From the UHGV virus genome UHGV-0253772: 44,914 nucleotides of DNA; one strand, given 5' to 3'. The notes beneath the pieces are model-generated. The model saw only the letters and a list, made by a program, of their open reading frames with translations. It was not told the origin of the DNA and made no database searches. Numbering within the stretch: the first letter of the stretch is position 1; the number at the start of each line of letters is the position of its first letter. The DNA is from a virus. A program made the translations under genes and the position numbers. This document shows, one piece after another, positions 9,068-18,482 of this stretch.

Positions 9068-10669
9068 TCAACGTCTAAGCCCCTCATATGGGTTCCCTCT
9101 CACTAAGTCTGTGTGAGCACCCATTGATGGTGGCTTGAATAATTTAACTTCGTTAAGACTGTTGAAAGCATCACTGGTAGCATCCACTTGGTCATCTTTA
9201 GTTTTACCATCACCACAAAAGCCTTCAAGCTCTTGGAAGTAAGCTTCATTCCAGCTACCTCTCAAGACTTTTACAAGTCCAGCTTCAGAAGCAGCAGAAA
9301 ATCCCGCAAAGCGGGTAACTTTATCTTTATTTGTTGGTTTAGCTCTTGCGCGATAACCTTTCTCGGCAAGTTTCCTGATGAGGGATGTTGCATAGGATTT
9401 ACCAGCAGCGCCTGGGTCTTGAGGGATAAAAATACCAGTTCGCTTACCGTCACTTTCAGCAGTCAAATTAATTTGTGTTTCGACTCCAGAGGGTCTATCT
9501 CTAAATCTTACTACATCAATGATATAATAGCAACCGTCTTTTTTAGATTTACCCATCTTAACACCCGCTGTCCAGTCTGGGTTAGGGTTAATTTCAGATG
9601 GTAAAGTCGCTGCTAAGTCCCATGCTCTGACATCAAACACATCTTCTGGTAGTGAATCAACAATCTCACACCATTGTCTTTGCCAATAGTTTGAACCTTC
9701 TGCACGAGCCTTCCAGTTACCGAAACGAAGTCTTGCAACGTTTACAGGTGTGTTGTTTTCCAACTTACCACGATACTTAGGTTCCAAGAAGTCAAGAATT
9801 GGGTTATCATCAATCGTACCAGAGATGAAGGTGTATGTCTGAGGAATCTCAAGAGGGAACATTTCAAGAATCTTGTCTCTCTCCCAATCAGAAACCATCA
9901 CACCATCATTCATAACATACCAACGAATACGACCACATTTCTCAGGGTCTGGGTAACCTTCTTCATCTAAGAATGGCTCTACCCAATCATAAATGAAGTG
10001 GTCTCTATCTGGGTTCATAGAAATCTTCATGTATGAATCCCCTTCAGCACCAGAACGTAGACGGGTCTGTAGGTATGAAATCTGTGAAGCTGAGAAGTGT
10101 GTACCTTCGTCAAAGTAAATAGCTGAGTATTCAATACCCTGATGACCTTCAGCGTGCTTTTCAAGCTCTAAGTAGGTGAACTTAATAGTTGCCCCAGAAG
10201 GGAATGTGATAGTCATTTTCTGCTCGTGAGGAATCCCACCAAACTTACCAAATAGTTTCTTTGCAGCAGGCCATAAACCACCTTGTAACTGTGTTGTATT
10301 TCGACGGAAATATACAGCATTATAGTTAGGGTCTTCAATAAATCTTAAAGAGTCCATTAACAATGCAGCAGTTTTACCAGCACCAGCAGCACCACCATAT
10401 AAAACCAAGTCAGCATTAGTATTTAAAAACACCTCTTGAGAACCCGGTTGAGGGGCTACATAATTCTTATCAGTCATCAATTTGAAGATAAGTCTAACTT
10501 GGTCTGGTGTGTATCTTAATAAAGTCAGAATTTGAGTTGGAAGGAATTTAGAGGGGTCTTTACCGAATGATTTGATAATTTCTTTTACTTCATCAGAAAG
10601 CCCCAACTCTCCAGCTAGGACTTTCCTAACGTCTTCCACTCGCTTCTGCTTAACAGCATTTAAGTCCAT
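9068..10669 (-). CDS. terL: terminase large subunit
   Basis: Walker A motif YGGAAGAGKT, C-terminal nuclease-like acidic region; ATG at 10669 preceded by GGAGGTG; the ORF-track start at 10684 is a TTG. Confidence 0.85.
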   Translation of the reverse strand: MDLNAVKQKRVEDVRKVLAGELGLSDEVKEIIKSFGKDPSKFLPTQILTLLRYTPDQVRLIFKLMTDKNYVAPQPGSQEVFLNTNADLVLYGGAAGAGKTAALLMDSLRFIEDPNYNAVYFRRNTTQLQGGLWPAAKKLFGKFGGIPHEQKMTITFPSGATIKFTYLELEKHAEGHQGIEYSAIYFDEGTHFSASQISYLQTRLRSGAEGDSYMKISMNPDRDHFIYDWVEPFLDEEGYPDPEKCGRIRWYVMNDGVMVSDWERDKILEMFPLEIPQTYTFISGTIDDNPILDFLEPKYRGKLENNTPVNVARLRFGNWKARAEGSNYWQRQWCEIVDSLPEDVFDVRAWDLAATLPSEINPNPDWTAGVKMGKSKKDGCYYIIDVVRFRDRPSGVETQINLTAESDGKRTGIFIPQDPGAAGKSYATSLIRKLAEKGYRARAKPTNKDKVTRFAGFSAASEAGLVKVLRGSWNEAYFQELEGFCGDGKTKDDQVDATSDAFNSLNEVKLFKPPSMGAHTDLVRGNPYEGLRR

Positions 10670-10891: not shown

Positions 10892-11016
10892 TATGTTTTC
10901 TCCAAATAATTAACCATGTTTCCCCTTAAAAAAGACGGTACAGAGACCGTCAAGGAGAAACCACAATGTACGTCAGAGACATACTGTATAAGTCTTCTTA
11001 TAAAGTATAACTCTGT

Positions 11017-11076
11017 AAAAAAGCCCTGTCTAAAAATACTCTTCGGTAGCGAAAGGAAGAATACTTATAGCAGGGC
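11017..11076 (-). terminator. putative rho-independent terminator ending the tRNA operon
   Basis: minus-strand hairpin GCCCUG...CAGGGC followed by a U6 run, just downstream of the last tRNA. Confidence 0.45.
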
Positions 11077-11113
11077 ATTATTATTATTTTAATTGAGAGA
11101 GAGTAAAATAACT

Positions 11114-11189
11114 TGGAGAATCCGAAGGGACTCGAACCCTTATAAACCTGTTTTGCAGACAGGCACATAGCCATTTCTGTCACGGATTC
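11114..11189 (-). tRNA. tRNA-Cys (anticodon GCA)
   Basis: manual cloverleaf: 7 bp acceptor, T-loop GGTTCGAGTCC, anticodon loop cuGCAaa, CCA encoded. Confidence 0.65.
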
Positions 11190-11193
11190 AAAT

Positions 11194-11286
11194 TGGAGGA
11201 AGATACCAGACTTGAACTGGTACACCGATTTCTCAGTTACTGGCAGTTTAGCAAACTGCTCCCTTACCTTTTAGGGTTAATCTTCC
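11194..11286 (-). tRNA. tRNA-Ser (anticodon GCU), long variable arm
   Basis: 93 nt, T-loop GTTCAAGTC, anticodon loop ttGCTaa, long extra arm. Confidence 0.6.
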
Positions 11287-11287
11287 A

Positions 11288-12022
11288 TTATTTCTGTAAT
11301 GCGTTCTTCATTTCTGGTGTTGCAATAGTGTCAATCACACCAGTTTTACAAGCATCGTCAAACCAGTCTGGTAAGATACCTGCTAAGAACCCATTGATAT
11401 TCGTTTTAAGGTACTCTGCAATAAGGGCAGCTTCTTCTTCAATCATCTGCACAACTTCATCTGCATAAGCTGTAATCTTCGAAATACCTTCATTAATCTT
11501 ACTAACAGCTTGGTTAGCTAAATCAGAAATAGTATCAAGACCTTTGTCAATAGCATCTTGTAAGTCACTTAATACATCATTAACACCGTCTAGTGCACTG
11601 TTAATCATATCAATAGCTTTTTGACCATACTCTGTAGCAACACCCATAATACCACTAAATGGTGTACAACCGACTTGTTCACCTGCTGCACCCATAACAT
11701 TAGAATAACCTTTTGCTACCTGCATACGTGATGAAAACTCATCAATGGACTTTTGACCGTAATCCGTCAGCGTTTTGGTAGTTGATGTAGTACTTGTCAG
11801 ACTCGTTGTAAAGCTGTTAAGCAGAACTGTTGTAAGTCCAGCAGCAACAAGTTTATCCTTTATTGTAGGGTCTGTTACAGAGCTAATAGAGCTTACAAGT
11901 GATGTAGAGGCAGCTACGGTTCCACCGAGAACTGCTGCACCAGTAATAAGGGGATTAGAAAACCCTCTACCGGTTTTTAAGAGATTAAAAATCTCCTTAC
12001 CTTGTTCTGTCATCTCTTTCAT
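11288..12022 (-). CDS. hypothetical protein with N-terminal hydrophobic segment and helical C-terminal region
   Basis: ORF-track start at 12085 would overlap a tRNA; internal ATG at 12022 taken as start (244 aa). Confidence 0.5.
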   Translation of the reverse strand: MKEMTEQGKEIFNLLKTGRGFSNPLITGAAVLGGTVAASTSLVSSISSVTDPTIKDKLVAAGLTTVLLNSFTTSLTSTTSTTKTLTDYGQKSIDEFSSRMQVAKGYSNVMGAAGEQVGCTPFSGIMGVATEYGQKAIDMINSALDGVNDVLSDLQDAIDKGLDTISDLANQAVSKINEGISKITAYADEVVQMIEEEAALIAEYLKTNINGFLAGILPDWFDDACKTGVIDTIATPEMKNALQK

Positions 12023-12038
12023 TAAGCACCTTTGAAAT

Positions 12039-12115
12039 TGGTAGTCCAGTGGGATTTGAACCCTCTTCTCATGTTTTTCAGACACGCGCTTTAACCATAT
12101 AAGCTACTTGGACTA
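12039..12115 (-). tRNA. tRNA-Phe (anticodon GAA)
   Basis: T-loop GGTTCAAATCC, anticodon loop ctGAAaa; D-arm and acceptor pairing imperfect in manual fold. Confidence 0.5.
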
Positions 12116-12120
12116 TAAAT

Positions 12121-12196
12121 TGGGGTGACCTACGGGATTTGAACCCGTATAGACCATGTTCACAGCATGGGTCATTACCATTTATGATAAGGCCAC
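12121..12196 (-). tRNA. tRNA-His (anticodon GUG)
   Basis: acceptor 7 bp with one G-U, anticodon stem ccatg/catgg, loop ctGTGaa. Confidence 0.6.
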
Positions 12197-12227
12197 ATTT
12201 AAGGACTCTCGTAAGAACCCTTAGAAG

Positions 12228-12303
12228 TGGCAGCGGCATAAGGATTTGAACCTTAATAAGACAGCTTCAGAGACTGCTGCATTGCCAGTTATGCTATACC
12301 GCT
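12228..12303 (-). tRNA. tRNA-Gln (anticodon CUG)
   Basis: anticodon stem with two G-U pairs, loop ctCTGaa, T-loop TTCAAAT. Confidence 0.5.
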
Positions 12304-12308
12304 AAATT

Positions 12309-12388
12309 TGGTACTCCATATCGGATTCGAACCGATACATAACACAGATTTTAAGTCTGGCCTCTCTGCCAATTGGAGTAATGGAGCA
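12309..12388 (-). tRNA. tRNA-Leu (anticodon UAA), atypical short variable arm
   Basis: D-loop CAATTGGCAGA of type-II style, anticodon loop ctTAAaa, discriminator A, but only about 7 nt variable region; boundaries uncertain. Confidence 0.45.
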
Positions 12389-12389
12389 T

Positions 12390-12465
12390 TGGCGGGGGAT
12401 GTTGGAATTGAACCAACTTCTTCGATTTCAAAGACCGAGGTTTTAACCTTGTAAACTAATCCCCT
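12390..12465 (-). tRNA. tRNA-Gln (anticodon UUG)
   Basis: T-arm gttgg-TTCAATT-ccaac, anticodon stem tcggt/atcga, loop ctTTGaa. Confidence 0.6.
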
Positions 12466-12473
12466 TTAAATCT

Positions 12474-13031
12474 TTACTTTCTTAGTGGATGAATAAAGAA
12501 TGCCAACATAACTCTTTCCCTTGAGAATGCTCTTTCTTCTGGGACAACACTTTTTAGCTTCCACCCAATATAAATTCTCCAGTAAAACTGTTTACCAAAG
12601 ACTTTAATTGATGGGATAAAAGCGAATAATCCCCAAGCATTGCTGTTCCACATTAGGAGATAACCTGTCTGATTATCTTCAGGGTTAGAACTTACGTTGA
12701 TATTACCTTTCCACTTAGTAACATCTTTTACATCTCTTCCTAACACATGGTAAGAGAAGTTATAAGCTTTGTTTCTCCAGAGCCAACCAACTCTCTGCAT
12801 ATAGACACCAAGCTTACCAATCTTTCTAATCTTAGCCCATCGTTCGATATGACCTTCATCACCATCAATTGGGTTGTCATAAGTTTCCATCCATCTGAAC
12901 CCGAAAGGTAAGTGTCCTTTCTTCTCACTGTAGAATGGAACTACAAAAGGTGCTAAGATAACTGCTAAGATTGCTGCAAATGGCTCTAATAAAGCTAAGA
13001 AAATCCATGAAGCATACTTCAAATATCTCAT
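12474..13031 (-). CDS. hypothetical membrane protein
   Basis: 185 aa, N-terminal hydrophobic helices, W/Y-rich; ATG start. Confidence 0.5.
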   Translation of the reverse strand: MRYLKYASWIFLALLEPFAAILAVILAPFVVPFYSEKKGHLPFGFRWMETYDNPIDGDEGHIERWAKIRKIGKLGVYMQRVGWLWRNKAYNFSYHVLGRDVKDVTKWKGNINVSSNPEDNQTGYLLMWNSNAWGLFAFIPSIKVFGKQFYWRIYIGWKLKSVVPEERAFSRERVMLAFFIHPLRK

Positions 13032-13270
13032 TGTCTAATCCTAGTAAGGAGGTAAACATTATTATCTGTTTCTGAGTTTTCTGGTAAAGCTGTCTCAAAA
13101 TTGACGCTTTTAAATTGTCTCCCACCAAAGTAATGACCAATAAATTTTTGTACTTTTATTGGGTCACATTCCCAGCCGACTTTCAAGAAAATGTGGGTAT
13201 CTATAGTGGGAACCCTTACAAACTCAATACTATTGGAATTTTCATGTTCAACGACGATTAATGTTTGCAT
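13028..13270 (-). CDS. hypothetical protein
   Basis: 80 aa ORF, ATG start, overlaps downstream gene start by 4 nt. Confidence 0.45.
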   Translation of the reverse strand: MQTLIVVEHENSNSIEFVRVPTIDTHIFLKVGWECDPIKVQKFIGHYFGGRQFKSVNFETALPENSETDNNVYLLTRIRQ

Positions 13271-13288
13271 AAATCTCTCTTATTTATC

Positions 13289-13364
13289 TGGCGCAGGATA
13301 AGGGACTTGAACCCCTATTAACAGCTTCGTAGACTGTTGCTCTATCCATTTGAACTAATCCTGC
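13289..13364 (-). tRNA. tRNA-Arg (anticodon ACG)
   Basis: clean cloverleaf: acceptor gcaggat/atcctgc, anticodon stem acagt/gctgt, loop ctACGaa. Confidence 0.65.
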
Positions 13365-13479
13365 TTACCTACGAGAACACCATACAGTTTTTCACAAACT
13401 TTGCTTTTACGTCTGTTTAGATATGACGCTCTAAACTTTTTTTGCAATTGACTTATTACTCATAGTGTTCTCCTAAAAT

Positions 13480-13557
13480 TGGTGTTCCAAGACGGATTCG
13501 AACCGTCACTAGTACAAGGTTTGAGCTTGCATCCTCTGCCAATTGGGATACTGGAAC
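13480..13557 (-). tRNA. tRNA-Leu (anticodon CAA), atypical short variable arm
   Basis: D-loop CAATTGGCAGA, anticodon stem gcaag/cttgt, loop ctCAAac, discriminator A, about 6 nt variable region. Confidence 0.5.
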
Positions 13558-13558
13558 A

Positions 13559-13633
13559 TGGTACTCACTAAAGGACTTGAACCTTTTTCTTCATCTTGTA
13601 AGGGTGATGTTTTACCATATAAACTAAGCGAGT
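13559..13633 (-). tRNA. tRNA-Val (anticodon UAC)
   Basis: T-arm aaagg-TTCAAGT-ccttt, anticodon loop ctTACaa, one mismatch in anticodon stem. Confidence 0.5.
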
Positions 13634-13729
13634 GTGAAAGAGGTCTGAAGTTGTGCCACTAACTCAACTCCGTGGAATTTGTTACGGTCTTCAGTTGACT
13701 CAAAGTGGTCTTTCACTTGACCTCTGAAT

Positions 13730-13805
13730 TGGTGCTCCCACAAGGATTCGAACCCTGATAAGTTGCTTACAAGGCAACCGTAATAGCCAATTATACGATA
13801 GGAGC
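13730..13805 (-). tRNA. tRNA-Thr (anticodon UGU)
   Basis: anticodon stem gttgc/gcaac perfect, loop ctTGTaa, T-loop TTCGAAT. Confidence 0.65.
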
Positions 13806-13812
13806 ATTAATT

Positions 13813-13887
13813 TGGAGCATCCAGAGGGAATCGAACCCTCAACCTCAGTTTGGAAGACTGTAATTTTCCCGTTTAAACTATGGATGC
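13813..13887 (-). tRNA. tRNA-Gly (anticodon UCC)
   Basis: acceptor gcatcca/tggatgc, T-arm gaggg-TTCGATT-ccctc, loop ctTCCaa. Confidence 0.6.
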
Positions 13888-13893
13888 ACTAAT

Positions 13894-13969
13894 TGGTGGA
13901 GTCACTGAGAATTGAACTCAGTTCCCAAGTTTGCAAAACTCGAATTTTAACCATATAAACTATGACCCC
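13894..13969 (-). tRNA. tRNA-Ala (anticodon UGC)
   Basis: acceptor with G3-U70 pair typical of Ala identity, anticodon loop ttTGCaa. Confidence 0.6.
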
Positions 13970-13974
13970 AATTT

Positions 13975-14050
13975 TGGTACAGGTGGAGGGAATTGAACCC
14001 ATCGTCTTACTGATTAAGAGTCAGCCGCATAACCATTTTGCTACACCTGC
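13975..14050 (-). tRNA. tRNA-Lys (anticodon CUU)
   Basis: anticodon stem gctga/tcagt, loop ctCTTaa; T-stem only 3 clean pairs. Confidence 0.5.
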
Positions 14051-14057
14051 ATTAATT

Positions 14058-14134
14058 TGGTACACCTAGAGAGATTCGAACTCACACTGAGCAGATTCTA
14101 AGTCTGCTGCCTCTACCAATTGGGCTATAGGTGC
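14058..14134 (-). tRNA. tRNA-Leu (anticodon UAG), atypical short variable arm
   Basis: D-loop CAATTGGTAGA, anticodon stem gcaga/tctgc perfect, loop ctTAGaa, discriminator A, 5 nt variable region. Confidence 0.55.
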
Positions 14135-14377
14135 ATTAAATCTTTTTAGAGAACTTCTAAGAACCTAAGCAACAAGGTTCCACAACAAGCTGTAATAACC
14201 TTAGAAGCCCTCTAAAAAGACCTAATTTGGTCTTTGCATAGTCTTGTTTAATCCGGTGACTAGAACCTTTGGAGAGCTTGATATTATCTCTTCTCCGTGA
14301 CACCTACTAGGTGCTTTACTGTGCGTGTACGACAATACACGAGGGATAAACCGAAAATGCGAGCAAGCATGGACGGA

Positions 14378-14719
14378 TTAAATCTTTAAGCTAAGTTCAG
14401 TCTTAGACTTGACATCTTTAGCTTTGTAGATGACAACTTTATCAAGTGGTTCAATGTAAACAGCTAAGTAATCAACTTGAGAGTTATCAAAATTCATTAT
14501 TCTATTTTCATTCTTGTTAGAACGAACTCTTTTCAGTTGCACTCTCCAAAGTTCACCTCTTTTGACTGATGTTGATTTTACCTCAACAGTCTCAATCAAG
14601 CCATCTTTGTGGACTAGAAAGTCATACTTTGCATTATCTGTAGCTGGTGAATACACTTCATAACCTCTTTTGAGGAAAGCTAATTGTGTAGCAATTTCAC
14701 CTACTGAACCTTTCTTCAT
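14378..14719 (-). CDS. Hjc-like PD-(D/E)xK nuclease (Holliday-junction-resolvase-like fold)
   Basis: motif order GSxGE ... YDFLV ... IETVEVKS matches the E-D-ExK signature of Hjc-type nucleases; ATG at 14719 with AAGGTGA upstream; the ORF-track start at 14728 is a GTG. Confidence 0.45.
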   Translation of the reverse strand: MKKGSVGEIATQLAFLKRGYEVYSPATDNAKYDFLVHKDGLIETVEVKSTSVKRGELWRVQLKRVRSNKNENRIMNFDNSQVDYLAVYIEPLDKVVIYKAKDVKSKTELSLKI

Positions 14720-14740
14720 AATCATCACCTTAAATTATTT

Positions 14741-14827
14741 TGGCAGAGAGTGCAGGAGTTGAACCCGTACCGTTTCCAGCAGCACCAGTTTTCAAGGCTG
14801 GTTGGTCTCCGTTGACCGCCACTCTCT
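14741..14827 (-). tRNA. tRNA-Ser (anticodon UGA), long variable arm
   Basis: 87 nt, perfect 7 bp acceptor agagagt/actctct, loop ctTGAaa, extra arm present. Confidence 0.6.
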
Positions 14828-14831
14828 CCGA

Positions 14832-14902
14832 AACAATCTTTGGCAGGGGTGTAGAGATTCGAACTCTAATCAAGAATTTTGGAGACTCTATTGCTGCCAT
14901 AG
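14832..14902 (-). tRNA. tRNA-Trp (anticodon CCA)
   Basis: acceptor aggggtg/cacccct, T-arm tagag-TTCGAAT-ctcta, loop ctCCAaa. Confidence 0.6.
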
Positions 14903-15050
14903 CTCACCCCTATTAAAACTACAATTCGAAGCTTACCGTATTATCTCAACACTGTAAAGCCCCTTCTCAGATTATTTACATGTTCTGGAAAACATGAGAT
15001 ACAGACCACCTCCCTACAGGAAGACCCGCTTAGGTCGTCTAAGTAATCTG

Positions 15051-15127
15051 CTAACTAATTGGCACACCCTACAGGATTCGAACCTGTAACTAACGATTTA
15101 GAAGACCGTTGCTCTATCCAATTGAAC
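15051..15127 (-). tRNA. tRNA-Arg (anticodon UCU)
   Basis: T-arm acagg-TTCGAAT-cctgt perfect, anticodon loop ctTCTaa. Confidence 0.6.
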
Positions 15128-15473
15128 TAAGGGTGCATTAATCTTTAAAGACTCTCTTAGAAAGCCCTTAAAGATGCCCACCTTATTAATCATACCGTGG
15201 GCTAGTACGCCAAATTCTTTGATGAGGGATTGGAATACCTCACTGGTGTTTAGCCTATCAAGCTACTGCCAGAAAAACATTGTCGTTTGCATTTATTTTA
15301 AATTTGCAAAATAGACGCTACGCAACGAAAACTATTCAGAATATGTACAACAAATTTCCCCACATTGTGTTACGTCTAACGCTCATGTATTGGTGTTTGA
15401 ATTATACATATTATGAATTATTTTTAGTTACTATAAAGTAGTCACATCTTAATGTCAACAACTTTATTGAAAT

Positions 15474-15549
15474 TGGTACTGGTAGGTGGAATCGAACCAC
15501 CGATGTTCCCTTATCAGGGGAGTGTTATAACCTTCTTAACTATACCAGC
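15474..15549 (-). tRNA. tRNA-Ile (anticodon GAU)
   Basis: T-arm ggtgg-TTCGATT-ccacc, anticodon loop ctGATaa. Confidence 0.6.
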
Positions 15550-15550
15550 T

Positions 15551-15627
15551 TGGAGGTTCAGATGGGAATCGAACCCACATTCATAGGGCTTATGAAACCC
15601 CTGCATTACCTTATCTGCGACTGAACC
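15551..15627 (-). tRNA. tRNA-Met (anticodon CAU)
   Basis: anticodon stem with three consecutive G-C pairs, loop ttCATaa; cannot distinguish initiator, elongator or Ile2 by eye. Confidence 0.55.
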
Positions 15628-15705
15628 ATAATAAGTACCCTAGTTAGAGAAACTGTTGAGTGGGTGTTTCCAGCCGCGCAGGTGTTTCTCAGTTAAGGGT
15701 GAATT

Positions 15706-15781
15706 TGGTAGAAGTGGAGGGATTCGAACCCATCGCCTGTCAGATTAAAAGTCTGCCGCATCACCATTCTGCTACACTTCC
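15706..15781 (-). tRNA. tRNA-Lys (anticodon UUU)
   Basis: T-arm similar to the Lys(CUU) gene, anticodon loop ctTTTaa. Confidence 0.55.
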
Positions 15782-16239
15782 ATTAAATTATCTTTGTAGA
15801 TAAGCTACCCAGACTTGCTTAAGGTCTGTAGCGATGTGCCTTTTTGGGTTTAAATCTAGAATTTACCCTTTCACCCTTTGTGGTCGCATACTCACAGGTA
15901 AGCTTAATAACTTATCTACAAAGATAATTACCAGACCGTTGTTTATCATCTTAAGTGCTACCATTACACCAACTCGACATCTGCCGAGTGAAGGAATCGA
16001 ACCTTCGCCTTTTCTTTACCGGAGAAATAGATTGTTTAAGTTTTGCTGTAAACGGTCTTCTGTAAATTTGTTGAGCCAGACCAAGTTTTAAATTTTTTCA
16101 AAATTAAATTGGCTTGAAAATATCATACGTACTTGCTGAATTTGGTCTTCTGCTCCTTTAAAGAATACTCGTAAGAACTCTTTAAGGGAGGGGCTAAATA
16201 GCCCTCTCAAAACATCATTTTGAAATACTTATTATAATT

Positions 16240-16316
16240 TGGCGGCTACGATGAGACTTGAACTCACATCATCTCCCGTGACAGGGGAGTATTTTCTCCA
16301 GTTAAACTACATAGCC
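16240..16316 (-). tRNA. tRNA-Asp (anticodon GUC)
   Basis: anticodon stem ctccc/gggag perfect, loop ctGTCac. Confidence 0.6.
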
Positions 16317-16321
16317 TCTAT

Positions 16322-16409
16322 TGGTGTGCCGTGTAGGAGTCGAACCTACCGAGTCTCAATGACAAGGGATTTACAGTCCCCACCGCTACCATCTACGGGA
16401 TAACGACAC
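16322..16409 (-). tRNA. tRNA-Tyr (anticodon GUA), long variable arm
   Basis: 88 nt, T-arm gtagg-TTCGACT-cctac, loop ctGTAaa, extra arm. Confidence 0.6.
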
Positions 16410-16418
16410 ATTTTAATT

Positions 16419-16495
16419 TGGCGGTTAGTCAGGGATTCGAACCCTGTGCCATTCGCTTAACAGGCGACCGCACATACCTTATGTGCTTCCTAACC
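16419..16495 (-). tRNA. tRNA-Asn (anticodon GUU)
   Basis: T-arm caggg-TTCGAAT-ccctg, D-stem gcac/gtgc, loop ctGTTaa. Confidence 0.6.
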
Positions 16496-16571
16496 TTAAT
16501 ACATTACCAGACCGTGTTTTTCTTTTATCCGCAAAAAGTAGTTTGTTGCTGAATACGGTCTTCTGTAAAAT

Positions 16572-16648
16572 TGGAGGCGGGTGCAGGAGTCGAACCTGCC
16601 GATACCATGCTAATGAGACATGTGAGACGCCCTTTCTCTATACCCGCA
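16572..16648 (-). tRNA. tRNA-Met (anticodon CAU), second copy
   Basis: T-arm gcagg-TTCGACT-cctgc, anticodon stem catgt/gcatg, loop ctCATta; acceptor boundaries uncertain. Confidence 0.45.
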
Positions 16649-16739
16649 ATTCTTAATGACCAGACCAAATCTCTTCTTTGTCCGATTTACCTTCAGATGA
16701 ATAAGATTAAGTTTGCTGTAATTGGTCTTCTGTCAAAAC

Positions 16740-16817
16740 TGGCGTTCCAGAAGGGATTTGAACCCTCAGATATCCACTTTGAAAGAGTGGTGACTTTACC
16801 ATTTTGTCTACTGGAAC
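16740..16817 (-). tRNA. tRNA-Glu (anticodon UUC)
   Basis: acceptor gttccag/ctggaac, anticodon stem ccact/agtgg perfect, loop ctTTCaa. Confidence 0.6.
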
Positions 16818-16824
16818 ATTAATT

Positions 16825-16901
16825 TGGTCTCTGTTGGAGGACTTGAACCTCCGGCCTTACCGCCCCAAACGGAACGCTCTACCAAGCTGAGCTAAACAGA
16901 G
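16825..16901 (-). tRNA. tRNA-Pro (anticodon UGG)
   Basis: acceptor ctctgtt/aacagag, T-arm ggagg-TTCAAGT-cctcc, loop ttTGGgg. Confidence 0.55.
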
Positions 16902-16927
16902 ATAAACTTTTCAAACTCTATGTAAAC

Positions 16928-16957
16928 ACTTTAACATTATTTTTTAGTGGTTGTCAA
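16928..16957 (-). promoter_or_regulatory. sigma70-like promoter for the tRNA operon
   Basis: minus strand reads TTGACA, 18 nt spacer, TAAAGT, about 25 nt upstream of the first tRNA 5' end. Confidence 0.45.
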
Positions 16958-17027
16958 GAACTTTTTTAAAATATTTTTCAGTATCTTAGAAAAGCTCTCA
17001 TTTCGTTTCTATGTAGAACATATTAAA

Positions 17028-17066: not shown

Positions 17067-18482
17067 TTACCAGATGTAACGGTCAAGCATTACTGCTTTG
17101 AGCATTACGCTGATTGGGTCAAACTTCTCACCACCAAGCAGAGCTTTTAAAGTGGCTGGAGAGAACCCTGATACCATTGCTACACCATTATCCTTAACAG
17201 ATACTTCGCAAGTACCATTACGGTTTGCTAAGTACCAGAATACTAGTTGTGGCATTTCGTATCCAGCTTTTTTGTACTTACTCTGAATTGCTTCAAAGTT
17301 TGTACGACCATTTGCACCATCAACCTGATTAAACTCCATATCAGAGAAGATAATAAGCTTACTTGGCATATCTTTCTGAGTCAAGTTGTTTCTCTTACCT
17401 GTTTCAAGAATGCGGTCAAAAGCTGCTTGTAAGTTAGTTGAGCCATATTCAACGTGTCGCATCACCTGACGATGACGGTTTCGTAAATCACCACTCAGTT
17501 CGATGAAGTGAGGGTTTGTTGAATAAACCATTAACTCATTCTTAAAGCAACCTGTATTGCGTTCTGCTACATACAAGGCAAGTGATACACCAATATCCAG
17601 AGCAGTAATGGAGCCAAAATTCACCCAAGACATTGAACTTGATACATCAGACATACACAAGATGTTTTCACCTTCTGCCATCCAGTTTGGTAGTGCTTTC
17701 CACTGCTCATTAGCAACATCTGCATTACCATACTTGACAGATTTAATCACATCGTATGGGTAAACAGCACCAGCGTTAATCTTAGTCTCACCTTTTGATA
17801 AGGACTCGATGTAAGCTTTGTAACGCTCTCCATCTTTACGGTTAAACAGTTTTTGGTAACGTGCAGCAGCAAGTGAAGGAATCTTACTGTAGTCAATCTT
17901 ACCAAACTCATTAGCAGAGATTTTTTGCTCAACTGTATCAGATAGTGCAGACAACAGTGTGCGGTACTCTTTCTCACTCAAGTTGGCAAACTTGCAGAAA
18001 CGTTTTACAAACTGCTTATGACGTGGTTTGACTCGTGGCAACCACTTAGCCGCCAAACCTGCTGTTGCAGGGTCTAGTAATGCTGCTTCTAAATGTTTGA
18101 AGGCATCTGTCTCGAAACGAGTACCTACGAAGATTTTGAAGTCATCAAAACGACCAAGTTCTGCAATCTTATCCATAATGCGAAGAACCTGCGTAGACTC
18201 TAAAACTTTGTCTTCAATTGCTTGAAGCAAAACAGTTCTGAAGGCTTTACGCTCACCCATACCTTCTCGTACATCTCGCATATGAAGCAAAATACGAACT
18301 GCAACATCAACATCCTCACGCAAAGCTTTGTAGAACAGGTCTGGTAAGATTTCTACGTTGCTACGGCTTGAACCAGCAGCTTTGTAAAAGTCTACAAGAG
18401 CAGACATTGATGAAGTATGGTTTACAGCACCATTTTCAGTTCGACCTGCATGAAGGTGCGCATGTTTAAATAATTCGCTCAT
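17067..18482 (-). CDS. vWA-domain protein with N-terminal helical TROVE/DUF2828-like domain (Ro60-like architecture)
   Basis: 471 aa; MIDAS-type DxSxS motif (SDVSSSMS) at the start of a C-terminal vWA-like region; N-terminal 270 aa helical; family assignment from memory of domain architecture, not from a search. Confidence 0.4.
   Translation of the reverse strand: MSELFKHAHLHAGRTENGAVNHTSSMSALVDFYKAAGSSRSNVEILPDLFYKALREDVDVAVRILLHMRDVREGMGERKAFRTVLLQAIEDKVLESTQVLRIMDKIAELGRFDDFKIFVGTRFETDAFKHLEAALLDPATAGLAAKWLPRVKPRHKQFVKRFCKFANLSEKEYRTLLSALSDTVEQKISANEFGKIDYSKIPSLAAARYQKLFNRKDGERYKAYIESLSKGETKINAGAVYPYDVIKSVKYGNADVANEQWKALPNWMAEGENILCMSDVSSSMSWVNFGSITALDIGVSLALYVAERNTGCFKNELMVYSTNPHFIELSGDLRNRHRQVMRHVEYGSTNLQAAFDRILETGKRNNLTQKDMPSKLIIFSDMEFNQVDGANGRTNFEAIQSKYKKAGYEMPQLVFWYLANRNGTCEVSVKDNGVAMVSGFSPATLKALLGGEKFDPISVMLKAVMLDRYIW

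What the first reader, a model, noticed from the sequence alone, without database searches (positions are those of the whole stretch)
12309..14134. Three Leu-anticodon tRNAs (UAA, CAA, UAG) with type-II-style D-loops but short variable arms
Seen by manual folding: genes at 12309-12388, 13480-13557 and 14058-14134 share the D-loop CAATTGG(C/T)AGA and discriminator A73, yet have only 5-7 nt between anticodon and T stems, while the Ser and Tyr genes in the same cluster keep long arms. Established: bacterial tRNA-Leu is normally class II. Inference: either unusual phage tRNA-Leu species or misassigned isoacceptors.
Basis: seen in the sequence. Interest (0 to 1): 0.55.

Follow-up and report, generated by a model that had tools for sequence, protein, structure and literature searches.

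The report
Short-armed leucine tRNAs in a coliphage
This FelixO1-like phage of E. coli and Salmonella carries three real leucine tRNA genes that lack the long extra arm of all host leucine tRNAs; this "type I" form is already known in Streptomyces and turns out to be common in phages, so the genes are ordinary, apart from the untested question of how the host enzyme loads them with leucine.

Summary
ARAGORN and Rfam both call three tRNA-Leu genes on the minus strand: UAA 12309-12387, CAA 13480-13557, UAG 14058-14134. They are 74-76 nt before the encoded CCA. Each has a 3-bp D stem, the 11-nt D loop CAAUUGGYAGA, A73 and a 5-7 nt variable loop. Ser and Tyr in the same 27-gene cluster keep long arms.

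The window is a Felixounavirus. These are type I (class I) tRNALeu. That kind was described and shown to be leucylated in Streptomyces coelicolor (Fan et al. 2019), and M. tuberculosis papers imply it. I found the same architecture in:
- more than 250 Felixounavirus records and the sister genus Kolesnikvirus;
- phages of Mycobacterium, Streptomyces, Klebsiella, Pseudomonas and Enterococcus;
- many IMG/VR contigs;
- single chromosomal genes of many Actinomycetota.

It was absent from 5,426 E. coli genomes. A covariance model built from 84 outside examples scores the three genes 70-84 bits; the next window tRNA scores 56.

Most likely the host LeuRS charges them, because every E. coli leucine identity element outside the long arm is present. 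Together they would cover the phage's UUA- and CUU-rich leucine codons. The open point is that E. coli LeuRS failed to charge the Streptomyces type I tRNALeu. This is a new member of a known kind, of moderate interest.

The parts
12309..12387 (-). Type I tRNA-Leu(UAA), 76 nt plus encoded CCA. Acceptor stem GCUCCAU/AUGGAGU with G1.U72. D stem CUC/GAG, D loop CAAUUGGCAGA, anticodon loop CUUAAAA, 7-nt variable loop GUUAUGU ending in U48, T loop UUCGAAU, A73. The top pair of the anticodon stem is a C.U mismatch.
   Evidence: ARAGORN; Rfam 47.5 bits; parse; type I tRNALeu model R1 70.3 bits; 100% identical in more than 200 phage records
13480..13557 (-). Type I tRNA-Leu(CAA), 75 nt plus encoded CCA. 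D stem UCC/GGA, D loop CAAUUGGCAGA, anticodon loop CUCAAAC (C38), 6-nt variable loop ACUAGU ending in U48, T loop UUCGAAU, A73.
   Evidence: ARAGORN; Rfam 43.6 bits; parse; R1 69.6 bits; at least 95% identical in about 250 records, with an ortholog of about 84% identity in Erwinia phages
14058..14134 (-). Type I tRNA-Leu(UAG), 74 nt plus encoded CCA. Acceptor stem with G1.U72. D stem GCC/GGC, D loop CAAUUGGUAGA, anticodon loop CUUAGAA (A37, not G37), 5-nt variable loop UCAGU, T stem with one U.U mismatch, A73.
   Evidence: ARAGORN; Rfam 58.9 bits; parse; R1 83.5 bits, the best match of all sources searched; ungapped matches of 76-83% over most of its length to tRNA-Leu of mycobacteriophages, Streptomyces phages and CR3-like phages
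11114..16901 (-). The surrounding cluster of 27 tRNA genes. All are on the minus strand and all encode CCA. Many are separated by only 1-7 nt, for example Gln(UUG)/Leu(UAA) by 2 nt and Val/Leu(CAA) by 1 nt. Small ORFs interrupt the cluster. It lies between the large terminase gene (9068-10669) and an RNA-binding-protein gene (17067-18482).
   Evidence: The same layout is annotated in Felixounavirus TP1, NC_041979.1.
11194..11286 (-). tRNA-Ser(GCU), 93 nt. Class II comparator that keeps its long variable arm.
14741..14827 (-). tRNA-Ser(UGA), 87 nt. Class II comparator with a long variable region.
   Evidence: It does not reach the Rfam gathering score.
16322..16409 (-). tRNA-Tyr(GUA), 88 nt. 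Class II comparator that keeps its long variable arm.

Best explanation
The three genes encode functional leucine tRNAs of the type I (short variable loop) kind. They are transcribed as part of the phage's 27-gene polycistronic tRNA cluster. Host enzymes process them, and the 3' CCA is already encoded. The host leucyl-tRNA synthetase (LeuRS) then charges them with leucine. Enterobacterial LeuRS reads A73 and the shape of the D/T-loop elbow: U8-A14, the A15-U48 Levitt pair, G18G19 with U55/C56, the extra D-loop A (A20a) and U54-A58. It does not read the anticodon or the long arm. All of these elements are present in the three tRNAs, so loss of the arm should be tolerated. Ser and Tyr tRNAs keep their arms; I take this to be because bacterial SerRS and TyrRS use the arm. 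Anticodons UAA, CAA and UAG together can read all six Leu codons, if U34 of UAG is modified as in the host. This gives an AT-rich phage its own supply for UUA, UUG, CUU and CUA, which E. coli decodes with minor tRNAs. What is shown: the genes, their fold, their conservation, their family membership and the presence of the identity elements. What is inferred: expression, charging by host LeuRS and use in translation.
For: Gene calls and fold.
Identity elements: alignment with E. coli leuZ, leuX and leuW shows the same D-arm design (3 bp plus an 11-nt loop NAAUYGGYAGA) with 8-10 nt of variable arm missing. U8, A14, A15, G18, G19, the A after Y20, U48, U54, U55, C56, A58 and A73 are all present. 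Those same positions are invariant in 84 diverse type I tRNALeu. Of these, U48 was not imposed by any pattern or filter used to collect the sequences.
Literature on the E. coli enzyme: the review PMC9976931 states that E. coli LeuRS needs exactly these elements, does not need the anticodon or the long arm, and still leucylates variants that lack both arms.
Purifying selection: the genes are 95-100% identical in about 250-290 phage records. The sister genus (phiEa104) has three short Leu tRNAs with different, compensating stems. Across the family 98.2% of stem cells pair and all 20 pairs show double changes.
Family membership: model R1 gives 83.5, 70.3 and 69.6 bits, against 55.7 for the next window tRNA.
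Precedent: type I tRNALeu is leucylated and essential in S. coliecolor's relative sense, that is, in S. coelicolor itself (PMC6614811).
Codon use in 49 window ORFs: UUA 27%, CUU 28%, UUG 14%, CUG 14%, CUA 11%, CUC 6%.
No phage LeuRS: a tblastn search with E. coli LeuRS hits only 9 Escherichia or Salmonella phage records in the whole collection, none of them among the 25 rows shown, against more than 250 Felixounavirus records.
Against: E. coli LeuRS did not charge the only bacterial type I tRNALeu tested so far, S. coelicolor tRNALeu(CAA). Fan et al. describe it as an enzyme that charges type II tRNALeu only. That tRNA has C48 rather than U48, which may explain the failure, but this is my inference.
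One listed E. coli determinant, the unpaired nucleotide 47n at the base of the long arm, cannot exist in these tRNAs.
Energy-only folding gives a cloverleaf for UAG, a near-cloverleaf for CAA and a different fold for UAA, with weak z-scores of -0.6 to -2.0.
There are small blemishes: a C.U mismatch in the UAA anticodon stem, a U.U mismatch in the UAG T stem, A37 instead of G37 in UAG, and C38 in CAA.
I have no expression or charging data.
Confidence: 0.75

Rival explanations
1. The short arm is itself the selected feature. By lacking the long variable arm, the phage's leucine tRNAs escape host or rival-element toxins that recognise class II tRNAs through that arm. Leucine decoding therefore survives when host tRNALeu is attacked. 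Under this view the tRNAs are still charged by host LeuRS, so this adds to the best explanation rather than replacing it.
For: Phage tRNAs are known to replace or escape targets of tRNA-directed defences (text cited). [quoted passage not shown] Type I tRNALeu is frequent in phage contigs: 31 of 81 Leu genes that the search pattern did not itself select. It also occurs in phages of hosts whose own tRNALeu are all type II, here E. coli.
Against: No bacterial defence is known to target tRNALeu through its long arm. MenT3 prefers tRNASer and largely spares tRNALeu. The bacterial Schlafen nucleases described so far cut the T loop or the anticodon arm broadly. Many phages, including T4 and T5, keep type II tRNALeu. 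Twelve viral loci carry both types. Chromosomal type I tRNALeu in Actinomycetota shows the form exists without any phage context.
Confidence: 0.12
2. Host LeuRS charges these tRNAs poorly or not at all. They need a phage-encoded helper, or they act in some way other than ordinary decoding, for example as uncharged regulators or decoys.
For: E. coli LeuRS did not charge S. coelicolor type I tRNALeu(CAA), and charging of type I depended on the Streptomyces leucine-specific domain. An RNA-binding-protein gene of unknown role lies right next to the cluster (17067-18482).
Against: The full E. coli identity set outside the arm is conserved, including U48, which the Streptomyces tRNA lacks. Type I tRNALeu occurs in phages of many unrelated hosts, which argues that ordinary LeuRS enzymes accept it. 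No LeuRS homologue is conserved in Felixounavirus. The three anticodons form a coherent decoding set that matches phage codon use.
Confidence: 0.07
3. The tRNAs carry an amino acid other than leucine, so the isoacceptors are misassigned or a codon is recoded.
For: Only the general point that LeuRS does not read the anticodon. Leucine identity therefore rests on the tRNA body, and the body is atypical for the host.
Against: The body is Leu-type. The outside type I tRNALeu model scores these genes 14-28 bits above any other tRNA in the window. There is no G3.U70 (Ala). There is no long arm (Ser, Tyr). The anticodons UAA, CAA and UAG are not cognate for any synthetase that reads the anticodon. 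A73 and the Leu-type D loop are present. Public records annotate all three as tRNA-Leu, and in the sister-genus record the CAA and AAG counterparts are tRNAscan-SE Leu calls.
Confidence: 0.03
4. They are decaying tRNA genes that lost the variable arm by deletion and no longer function.
For: There are a few stem mismatches, and the energy-only fold of the UAA species is not a cloverleaf.
Against: The genes are near-identical in hundreds of genomes. The sister genus shows compensatory changes. The whole type I family shows 98% pairing. The window has no type II tRNALeu that could serve instead.
Confidence: 0.03

Closest known systems
Type I tRNALeu(CAA) of Streptomyces coelicolor (Fan, Huang, Ji & Wang 2019, Nucleic Acids Res 47:6369; PMC6614811)
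   Same: A bacterial-type cloverleaf with a Leu anticodon and a short unpaired variable loop (5 nt there; 5, 6 and 7 nt here). It has U8-A14 and the G18G19/U55C56 elbow. It was shown experimentally to accept leucine and to be essential. My genome scan found the same D arm, UAGCCCAAUUGGCAGAGGC, in chromosomal type I tRNALeu of many Actinomycetota.
   Different: The window's genes are phage-borne, and all three Leu tRNAs of the cluster are type I. The host (E. coli or Salmonella) has only type II tRNALeu, and its LeuRS was reported not to charge the Streptomyces type I tRNA. The phage tRNAs have U48 where the Streptomyces tRNA has C48. Two of the three have loops longer than the usual 5 nt.
E. 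coli type II tRNALeu (leuZ UAA, leuX CAA, leuW UAG)
   Same: The same three anticodons. The same D-arm design (3-bp stem, 11-nt loop NAAUYGGUAGA). A73, U8-A14, A15-U48 and the T-loop determinants are shared. leuZ also has G1.U72.
   Different: The host tRNAs carry a 13-15 nt variable arm. Outside the variable region they are only 49-65% identical to the phage tRNAs, whereas actinobacterial type I tRNALeu average 65-74%. blastn finds no match to the phage UAG gene in 5,426 E. coli genomes.
tRNA-Leu of the model coliphages T4 and T5
   Same: Phage-encoded leucine tRNAs that sit in tRNA clusters interrupted by small ORFs and endonuclease genes.
   Different: The T4 gene is 87 nt and the T5 tRNALeu(UAG) gene is 85 nt, so both are type II. 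They score 58.9 and 48.6 bits with the type I model, against 70-84 bits here.
Animal mitochondrial tRNALeu, for example human mt-tRNALeu(UUR)
   Same: A leucine tRNA without a long variable arm. Its identity is specified mainly by A73 and A14.
   Different: Mitochondrial tRNAs are structurally relaxed and have their own dedicated LeuRS. The phage tRNAs have canonical bacterial D and T loops and must rely on the host's single LeuRS.
Short tRNA-Leu genes of other phages, such as Mycobacterium phage Cali/Bxz1, Streptomyces phages, Cronobacter CR3-like phages and Erwinia phiEa104
   Same: The same 74-76 nt architecture. The window's UAG tRNA matches them at 76-83% without gaps. Model R1 scores them 64-80 bits.
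   Different: Different hosts and anticodon sets: Cali has CAG, GAG and CAA; phiEa104 has CAA, AAG and UAA. For actinobacteriophages the host itself has type I tRNALeu. For this phage it does not.

Membership tests
tRNA (Rfam RF00005) | A full-length match to the tRNA covariance model above the gathering score | tested here: met
   47.5, 43.6 and 58.9 bits against a gathering score of 29, covering model positions 1-71. ARAGORN calls all three.
Type I (short variable loop) tRNALeu | A leucine anticodon (NAG or YAA) in a 7-nt loop with U33 | tested here: met
   Anticodons UAA, CAA and UAG. Loops CUUAAAA, CUCAAAC and CUUAGAA.
Type I (short variable loop) tRNALeu | A variable region of about 5 nt with no stem, as opposed to the 10 or more nt with a helix of type II | tested here: met
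   7, 6 and 5 nt. The family norm is 5 nt: 55 of 60 viral and 76 of 77 chromosomal examples. Two of the three are therefore slightly long but still cannot form a stem.
Type I (short variable loop) tRNALeu | A Leu-type D arm (3-bp stem, 10-12 nt loop with A14, A15, G18G19 and an extra A after position 20), with U48 and A73 | tested here: met
   The same positions are invariant in 84 outside members. A14A15 with U48 is found in 59 of 60 viral and 77 of 77 chromosomal members.
Type I (short variable loop) tRNALeu | Scores as a member with a covariance model built only from other members, clearly above other isotypes | tested here: met
   Model R1 was built from 84 sequences, none from the window. 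It gives 83.5, 70.3 and 69.6 bits. The next window tRNA (Glu) scores 55.7, and E. coli type II Leu tRNAs score 57.8-63.1.
Type I (short variable loop) tRNALeu | Accepts leucine from a LeuRS | not testable with these tools
   This needs aminoacylation assays or charged-tRNA sequencing. It has been shown only for S. coelicolor tRNALeu(CAA) with its own LeuRS.
Canonical bacterial type II (class II) tRNALeu | A long variable arm with a base-paired stem | tested here: not met
   The genes are 74-76 nt before CCA. ARAGORN, Rfam and my explicit parse all give 5-7 unpaired nt. The host's leuZ, leuX and leuW have 13-15 nt.
Substrate of E. coli LeuRS (identity set as summarised in PMC9976931 and PMC6614811) | A73; U8-A14; A15-U48; G18G19 with U55/C56; A20a; U54-A58 | tested here: met
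   All are present in all three tRNAs.
Substrate of E. coli LeuRS (identity set as summarised in PMC9976931 and PMC6614811) | The position of the unpaired residue 47n at the base of the long arm | tested here: not met
   There is no long arm, so the element cannot exist. The review reports that arm-less minimal variants are still leucylated, whereas E. coli LeuRS failed on the Streptomyces type I tRNA.
Substrate of E. coli LeuRS (identity set as summarised in PMC9976931 and PMC6614811) | Actual leucylation by the host enzyme | not testable with these tools
   No biochemical or tRNA-sequencing data were available. The ten searches of the paper library turned up nothing on charging of phage tRNALeu.

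The most novel reading that the evidence does not exclude
Phages of hosts that have only type II tRNALeu carry type I tRNALeu because the missing arm makes leucine decoding immune to host or rival-element toxins that recognise class II tRNAs through the variable arm. The three genes would then be anti-defence tRNAs. Their charging in E. coli would also show that enterobacterial LeuRS is not restricted to type II tRNALeu, contrary to the published statement.
Probability: 0.12. Interest if true: 0.75.

Novelty: new member of a known kind. Interest (0 to 1): 0.42.

Why it matters
Textbooks place tRNALeu with the long-armed class II tRNAs. The one biochemical study of a bacterial short-armed tRNALeu concluded that E. 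coli LeuRS charges only the long-armed type. Here a well-conserved group of E. coli and Salmonella phages relies on three short-armed leucine tRNAs and has no long-armed one. Either the host enzyme does accept this form when U48 and the elbow determinants are right, or something else is going on. Both outcomes are cheap to test and would refine the rules of leucine identity. The survey also shows that short-armed tRNALeu is widespread in phages and is a regular chromosomal gene in Actinomycetota. That matters for tRNA annotation, where some records label such genes 'Undet' or 'Pseudo'. It also matters for arguments about where phage tRNAs come from, because these are closer to actinobacterial tRNAs than to host tRNAs. 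In addition, they offer naturally compact tRNALeu scaffolds for engineering. The genes themselves are already annotated as tRNA-Leu in hundreds of public records, so this is a refinement and not a discovery of new genes.

Tried and rejected
1. Energy-only folding. Only the UAG species gives a clean cloverleaf, and the z-scores are weak. This is normal for AU-rich unmodified tRNA sequences, so I did not use it as evidence either way.
2. The D-loop string as a Leu marker. The pattern AATTGGYAGA...GTTCRANTC in IMG/VR mostly hit Thr, Lys, Asn and other tRNAs with ordinary 4-bp D stems. The string alone is therefore not 'type II style'. What matters is the register: a 3-bp stem and an 11-nt loop, which leaves 9 nt before position 32. 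The second pattern used that spacing and proved Leu-specific.
3. Literature. Ten searches were run. Seven found nothing on short-armed tRNALeu in phages. The papers on phage tRNAs and tRNA-targeting defences do not mention it. Only the ninth search surfaced Fan et al. 2019, and the tenth confirmed it is the only held paper that uses the phrase 'type I tRNALeu'. Larkin et al. 2002 is not held, so its result is cited only through the review.
4. A phage-encoded LeuRS. The tblastn search with E. coli LeuRS gives 74 phage records, most of which look like bacterial fragments or jumbo phages. Nothing is conserved in Felixounavirus. I rejected this idea.
5. Host origin. blastn of the UAG gene against 5,426 E. 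coli genomes finds nothing, and identity to leuZ, leuX and leuW is lower than to actinobacterial type I genes. I rejected recent capture from the host.
6. Promoter and terminator scan. The site counts are not above the shuffled controls. There are consensus-like promoters upstream of the cluster (17048-17020 and 16957-16928, minus strand) and a terminator-like hairpin after it (10951-10934). I mention these only as compatible with a polycistronic unit.
7. Frequencies from capped scans. The proportions (31 short against 50 long among unselected viral Leu genes; 99 of 120 genome loci) are indications, not a census.
Full report
**Observation.** ARAGORN finds 27 tRNA genes, all on the minus strand between 11114 and 16901. 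Three are tRNA-Leu: UAA at c[12309,12387], CAA at c[13480,13557] and UAG at c[14058,14134]. They are 79, 78 and 77 nt long including an encoded CCA. Rfam's general tRNA model matches all three end to end at 47.5, 43.6 and 58.9 bits, against a gathering score of 29.

An explicit cloverleaf parse gives the same layout for each gene:
- a 7-bp acceptor stem, then U8 and A9;
- a 3-bp D stem and the 11-nt D loop CAAUUGG(C/U)AGA;
- one linker nucleotide, then a 5-bp anticodon stem and a 7-nt loop;
- a variable loop of 7 nt (GUUAUGU), 6 nt (ACUAGU) or 5 nt (UCAGU);
- a 5-bp T stem, the T loop UUCGAAU and the discriminator A73.

With 74-76 nt before CCA there is no room for a long arm. Ser(GCU), Ser(UGA) and Tyr(GUA) in the same cluster are 93, 87 and 88 nt.

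**Context.** The region 11000-17000 is 93-97% identical to many FelixO1/wV8-like phages of E. coli, Salmonella, Shigella and Citrobacter, that is, the genus Felixounavirus in the subfamily Ounavirinae. RefSeq record NC_041979.1 annotates the same cluster with the same three tRNA-Leu of 79, 78 and 77 nt. The cluster lies between the large terminase gene (9068-10669) and a 471-aa 'RNA-binding protein' gene (17067-18482). Conserved small ORFs of unknown function and a PD-(D/E)XK endonuclease ORF interrupt it. Neighbouring tRNAs are often only 1-7 nt apart and all encode CCA, which fits polycistronic transcription and host processing. The promoter and terminator scan is compatible with this but is not above chance.

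**Comparison with the host.** E. coli K-12 leuZ (UAA), leuX (CAA) and leuW (UAG) are 85-87 nt. In the alignment the phage tRNAs have the same D-arm design as the host tRNAs, a 3-bp stem and a loop NAAUYGGYAGA, but lack 8-10 nt of the variable arm. Outside the variable region they are only 49-65% identical to the host tRNAs. blastn of the UAG gene finds nothing in 5,426 complete E. coli genomes. These genes were not recently captured from the host.

**Distribution.** The three genes are 95-100% identical in roughly 250-290 phage records. Erwinia phage phiEa104 belongs to Kolesnikvirus, another genus of the same subfamily. It has three short Leu tRNAs (CAA 77 nt, AAG 78 nt, UAA 77 nt) with the same core but different, compensating acceptor and anticodon stems.

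The UAG gene also matches annotated tRNA-Leu genes in quite unrelated phages, without gaps and at 76-83% identity over most of its length. Their hosts include Mycobacterium (Bxz1/Cali type), Streptomyces, Klebsiella, Cronobacter and Enterobacter (CR3 type); shorter ungapped matches come from phages of Pseudomonas, Acinetobacter, Enterococcus, Lactobacillus and a crAss-like phage. Phage Cali has three tRNA-Leu of 74-76 nt next to an 85-nt tRNA-Ser. T4 (87 nt) and T5 (85 nt) have long-armed Leu tRNAs.

In 120 IMG/VR loci, ARAGORN found 111 tRNA-Leu with a bimodal length distribution: 61 of 73-78 nt and 50 of 80-91 nt. All 61 tRNA-Ser and 32 of 35 tRNA-Tyr were long. Among Leu genes that the search pattern had not itself selected, 31 were short and 50 long. 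These numbers come from a capped, pattern-selected sample and are indications only.

Of those loci, 99 contained a short tRNA-Leu. In 75 loci it was the only tRNA within 8 kb. Nearly all of these were Actinomycetota chromosomes, including Nocardia, Mycobacterium, Rhodococcus, Gordonia, Corynebacterium, Arthrobacter, Bifidobacterium and Amycolatopsis. Their anticodons were UAA, CAA or UAG, and the D arm was UAGCCCAAUUGGCAGAGGC, the same as in the phage UAG tRNA. Other hits sat in arrays of 8-26 tRNA genes. The window's tRNAs are on average 65-74% identical to the chromosomal actinobacterial genes, which is more than to host tRNAs. The selection pattern inflates that figure somewhat.

**A coherent family.** I took 84 non-redundant 74-nt members (less than 85% pairwise identity, none from the window). 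They align without gaps. The invariant positions are U8, A14, A15, G18, G19, the A after position 20, U33, A35, U48, U54, U55, C56, A58 and A73. Several of these were imposed by my patterns or filters (A14, A15 and G18G19 in the genome set, the UUC of the T loop, and A73). U48 was not. On the stated cloverleaf, 98.2% of stem cells pair, against 37-47% when the partners are slid. All 20 pairs show changes on both sides. One caveat applies: the sequences were chosen because they parse into this fold. Where position 15 is G, position 48 is C, so the Levitt pair covaries. The variable loop is 5 nt in 55 of 60 viral and 76 of 77 chromosomal members, so the window's 6- and 7-nt loops are at the long end of the range.

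A covariance model built from these 84 sequences scores the window's Leu genes 83.5, 70.3 and 69.6 bits. The next best window tRNA scores 55.7. E. coli long-armed Leu tRNAs score 57.8-63.1, T4 Leu 58.9 and T5 Leu 48.6. Membership in the short-armed tRNALeu family is therefore tested and met. Membership in canonical class II tRNALeu is tested and not met.

**What is already known.** Fan, Huang, Ji and Wang (2019, PMC6614811) describe 'type I' tRNALeu(CAA) in Streptomyces coelicolor, with a 5-nt variable loop ACAGC.
- Its own LeuRS leucylates both type I and type II tRNALeu.
- The leucine-specific domain of that enzyme is what enables type I charging.
- Five nucleotides including position 48 is the minimal loop.
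- The gene could not be deleted.

They also state that almost all bacterial tRNALeu are type II, and that E. coli LeuRS did not charge the Streptomyces type I tRNA and 'only charges type II'. Two M. tuberculosis papers note that only three of its five tRNALeu have long arms. The identity review (PMC9976931) lists what E. coli LeuRS needs: A73, the A15-U48 pair, G18G19, A20a and the D/T-loop tertiary pairs. [quoted passage not shown] None of the ten literature searches found a paper that notes type I tRNALeu in phages. Absence from this library is not proof that no such paper exists.

**Most likely mechanism (confidence about 0.75).** The three genes are working leucine tRNAs, charged by the host LeuRS and used to translate phage mRNAs.
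- *Shown:* they are bona fide tRNA genes under strong purifying selection. They belong to a family whose one tested member accepts leucine. They contain every E. coli leucine determinant that lies outside the long arm. The cluster has no long-armed Leu tRNA. No LeuRS homologue is conserved in these phages.
- *Inferred:* expression, charging and use in translation.

Leucine codon use in 49 ORFs of the window is UUA 27%, CUU 28%, UUG 14%, CUG 14%, CUA 11% and CUC 6%. From general knowledge, E. coli uses CUG for about half of its leucines and decodes the other codons with minor tRNAs. UAA reads UUA and UUG, CAA reads UUG, and UAG reads the CUN codons. The set therefore covers the phage's needs.

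Keeping the arms of Ser and Tyr while dropping that of Leu fits the general knowledge that bacterial SerRS and TyrRS use the arm, while the review states that E. coli LeuRS does not.

The main evidence against is the published failure of E. coli LeuRS on the Streptomyces type I tRNA. That tRNA has C48, whereas the phage tRNAs keep U48, which E. coli LeuRS requires as part of A15-U48. This may resolve the conflict, but it is my inference. A second point is that the determinant '47n' cannot exist without the arm. There are also minor blemishes: a C.U mismatch in the UAA anticodon stem, a U.U mismatch in the UAG T stem, and a weak energy-only fold for UAA.

**Rivals.**
- *Anti-defence reading (about 0.12; compatible with the above).* Loss of the arm protects leucine decoding from toxins that recognise class II tRNAs through the arm. 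MenT3 shows that such recognition exists. However, no known bacterial system targets tRNALeu this way, and T4 and T5 keep long arms.
- *Poor host charging, needing a helper or serving another role (about 0.07).* This rests on the Fan et al. result and on the adjacent RNA-binding-protein gene.
- *A different amino-acid identity (about 0.03).* The Leu-type body, the model scores and the absence of other identity marks contradict it.
- *Decaying genes (about 0.03).* The conservation contradicts it.

**Verdict.** It is not a new kind of molecule. It is a new, phage-borne member of the type I tRNALeu kind, and hundreds of GenBank records already annotate these genes as tRNA-Leu. Two points are worth recording. 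First, this form is common in phages and in actinobacterial chromosomes. Second, there is a concrete, untested tension between its presence in E. coli and Salmonella phages and the published view that E. coli LeuRS is restricted to type II tRNALeu. Interest is moderate (0.42).

Noticed in passing
window 17067-18482 (-): A 471-aa ORF lies directly upstream of the tRNA cluster. It matches PHROG 850 'RNA-binding protein' (E 1e-183) and Pfam DUF2828 plus DUF7788. RefSeq relatives annotate it as an RNA-binding protein. Any functional link to the tRNA cluster is unknown.
   Followed up: partly
window 14378-14725 (-), and 11288-12022, 12474-13031, 13028-13270 (-): ORFs are interspersed among the tRNA genes: a PD-(D/E)XK endonuclease (PF11645), DUF7217, DUF7338 and a small PHROG of unknown function. 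Relatives align to 11000-17000 in 3-6 pieces, so blocks between the tRNA groups come and go, as with homing-endonuclease traffic in the T4 and T5 tRNA regions.
   Followed up: partly
window 14741-14827, 14841-14911, 16322-16409, 16572-16648 (-): Four ARAGORN tRNAs do not reach the Rfam gathering score. They are Ser(UGA); a 71-nt Trp(CCA) with a poorly paired D arm (T5 also has a 71-nt Trp gene); Tyr(GUA); and a Met(CAU) with a mismatched 1:72 pair, which looks initiator-like.
   Followed up: no
window 14058-14134 and 13480-13557 (-): tRNALeu(UAG) has A37 rather than the G37 that E. coli leuW has (host TrmD would methylate G37 to m1G37; general knowledge). tRNALeu(CAA) has C38, so it lacks the A36-A37-A38 motif. 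Among type I Leu tRNAs with NAG anticodons, A37 occurs in 18 of 30 viral genes and 22 of 30 array genes, but only 2 of 9 solitary chromosomal genes.
   Followed up: partly
GU169904.1 (hit H122): The record 'Staphylococcus phage SA1' (147 kb) contains a 100% identical copy of the Felixounavirus tRNA-Leu(UAA). This suggests a mixed or chimeric assembly and not a real Staphylococcus phage gene.
   Followed up: no
L247 (Erwinia phage phiEa104) 5116-5192 and 5278-5354: The deposited tRNAscan-SE annotation labels as 'Pseudo' and 'Undet' two genes that ARAGORN calls Arg(ACG) and a short Leu(UAA). Type I Leu tRNAs may be under-called in some phage annotations.
   Followed up: partly
L204 (Cylindrospermum, 26 tRNAs in 8 kb), L141, L207, L210, L239, L241, L137: Type I tRNALeu genes also occur inside dense arrays of 17-26 tRNA genes in genomes of Cyanobacteria, Acidobacteriota, Proteobacteria and Actinomycetota. 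These may be prophages or 'tRNA array units'. Several arrays hold multiple type I Leu isoacceptors.
   Followed up: no
L127-L245: Many Actinomycetota chromosomes carry a solitary type I tRNALeu (UAA, CAA or UAG) with a nearly invariant D arm, UAGCCCAAUUGGCAGAGGC. This is far more widespread than the single Streptomyces case treated in the literature I could read.
   Followed up: partly
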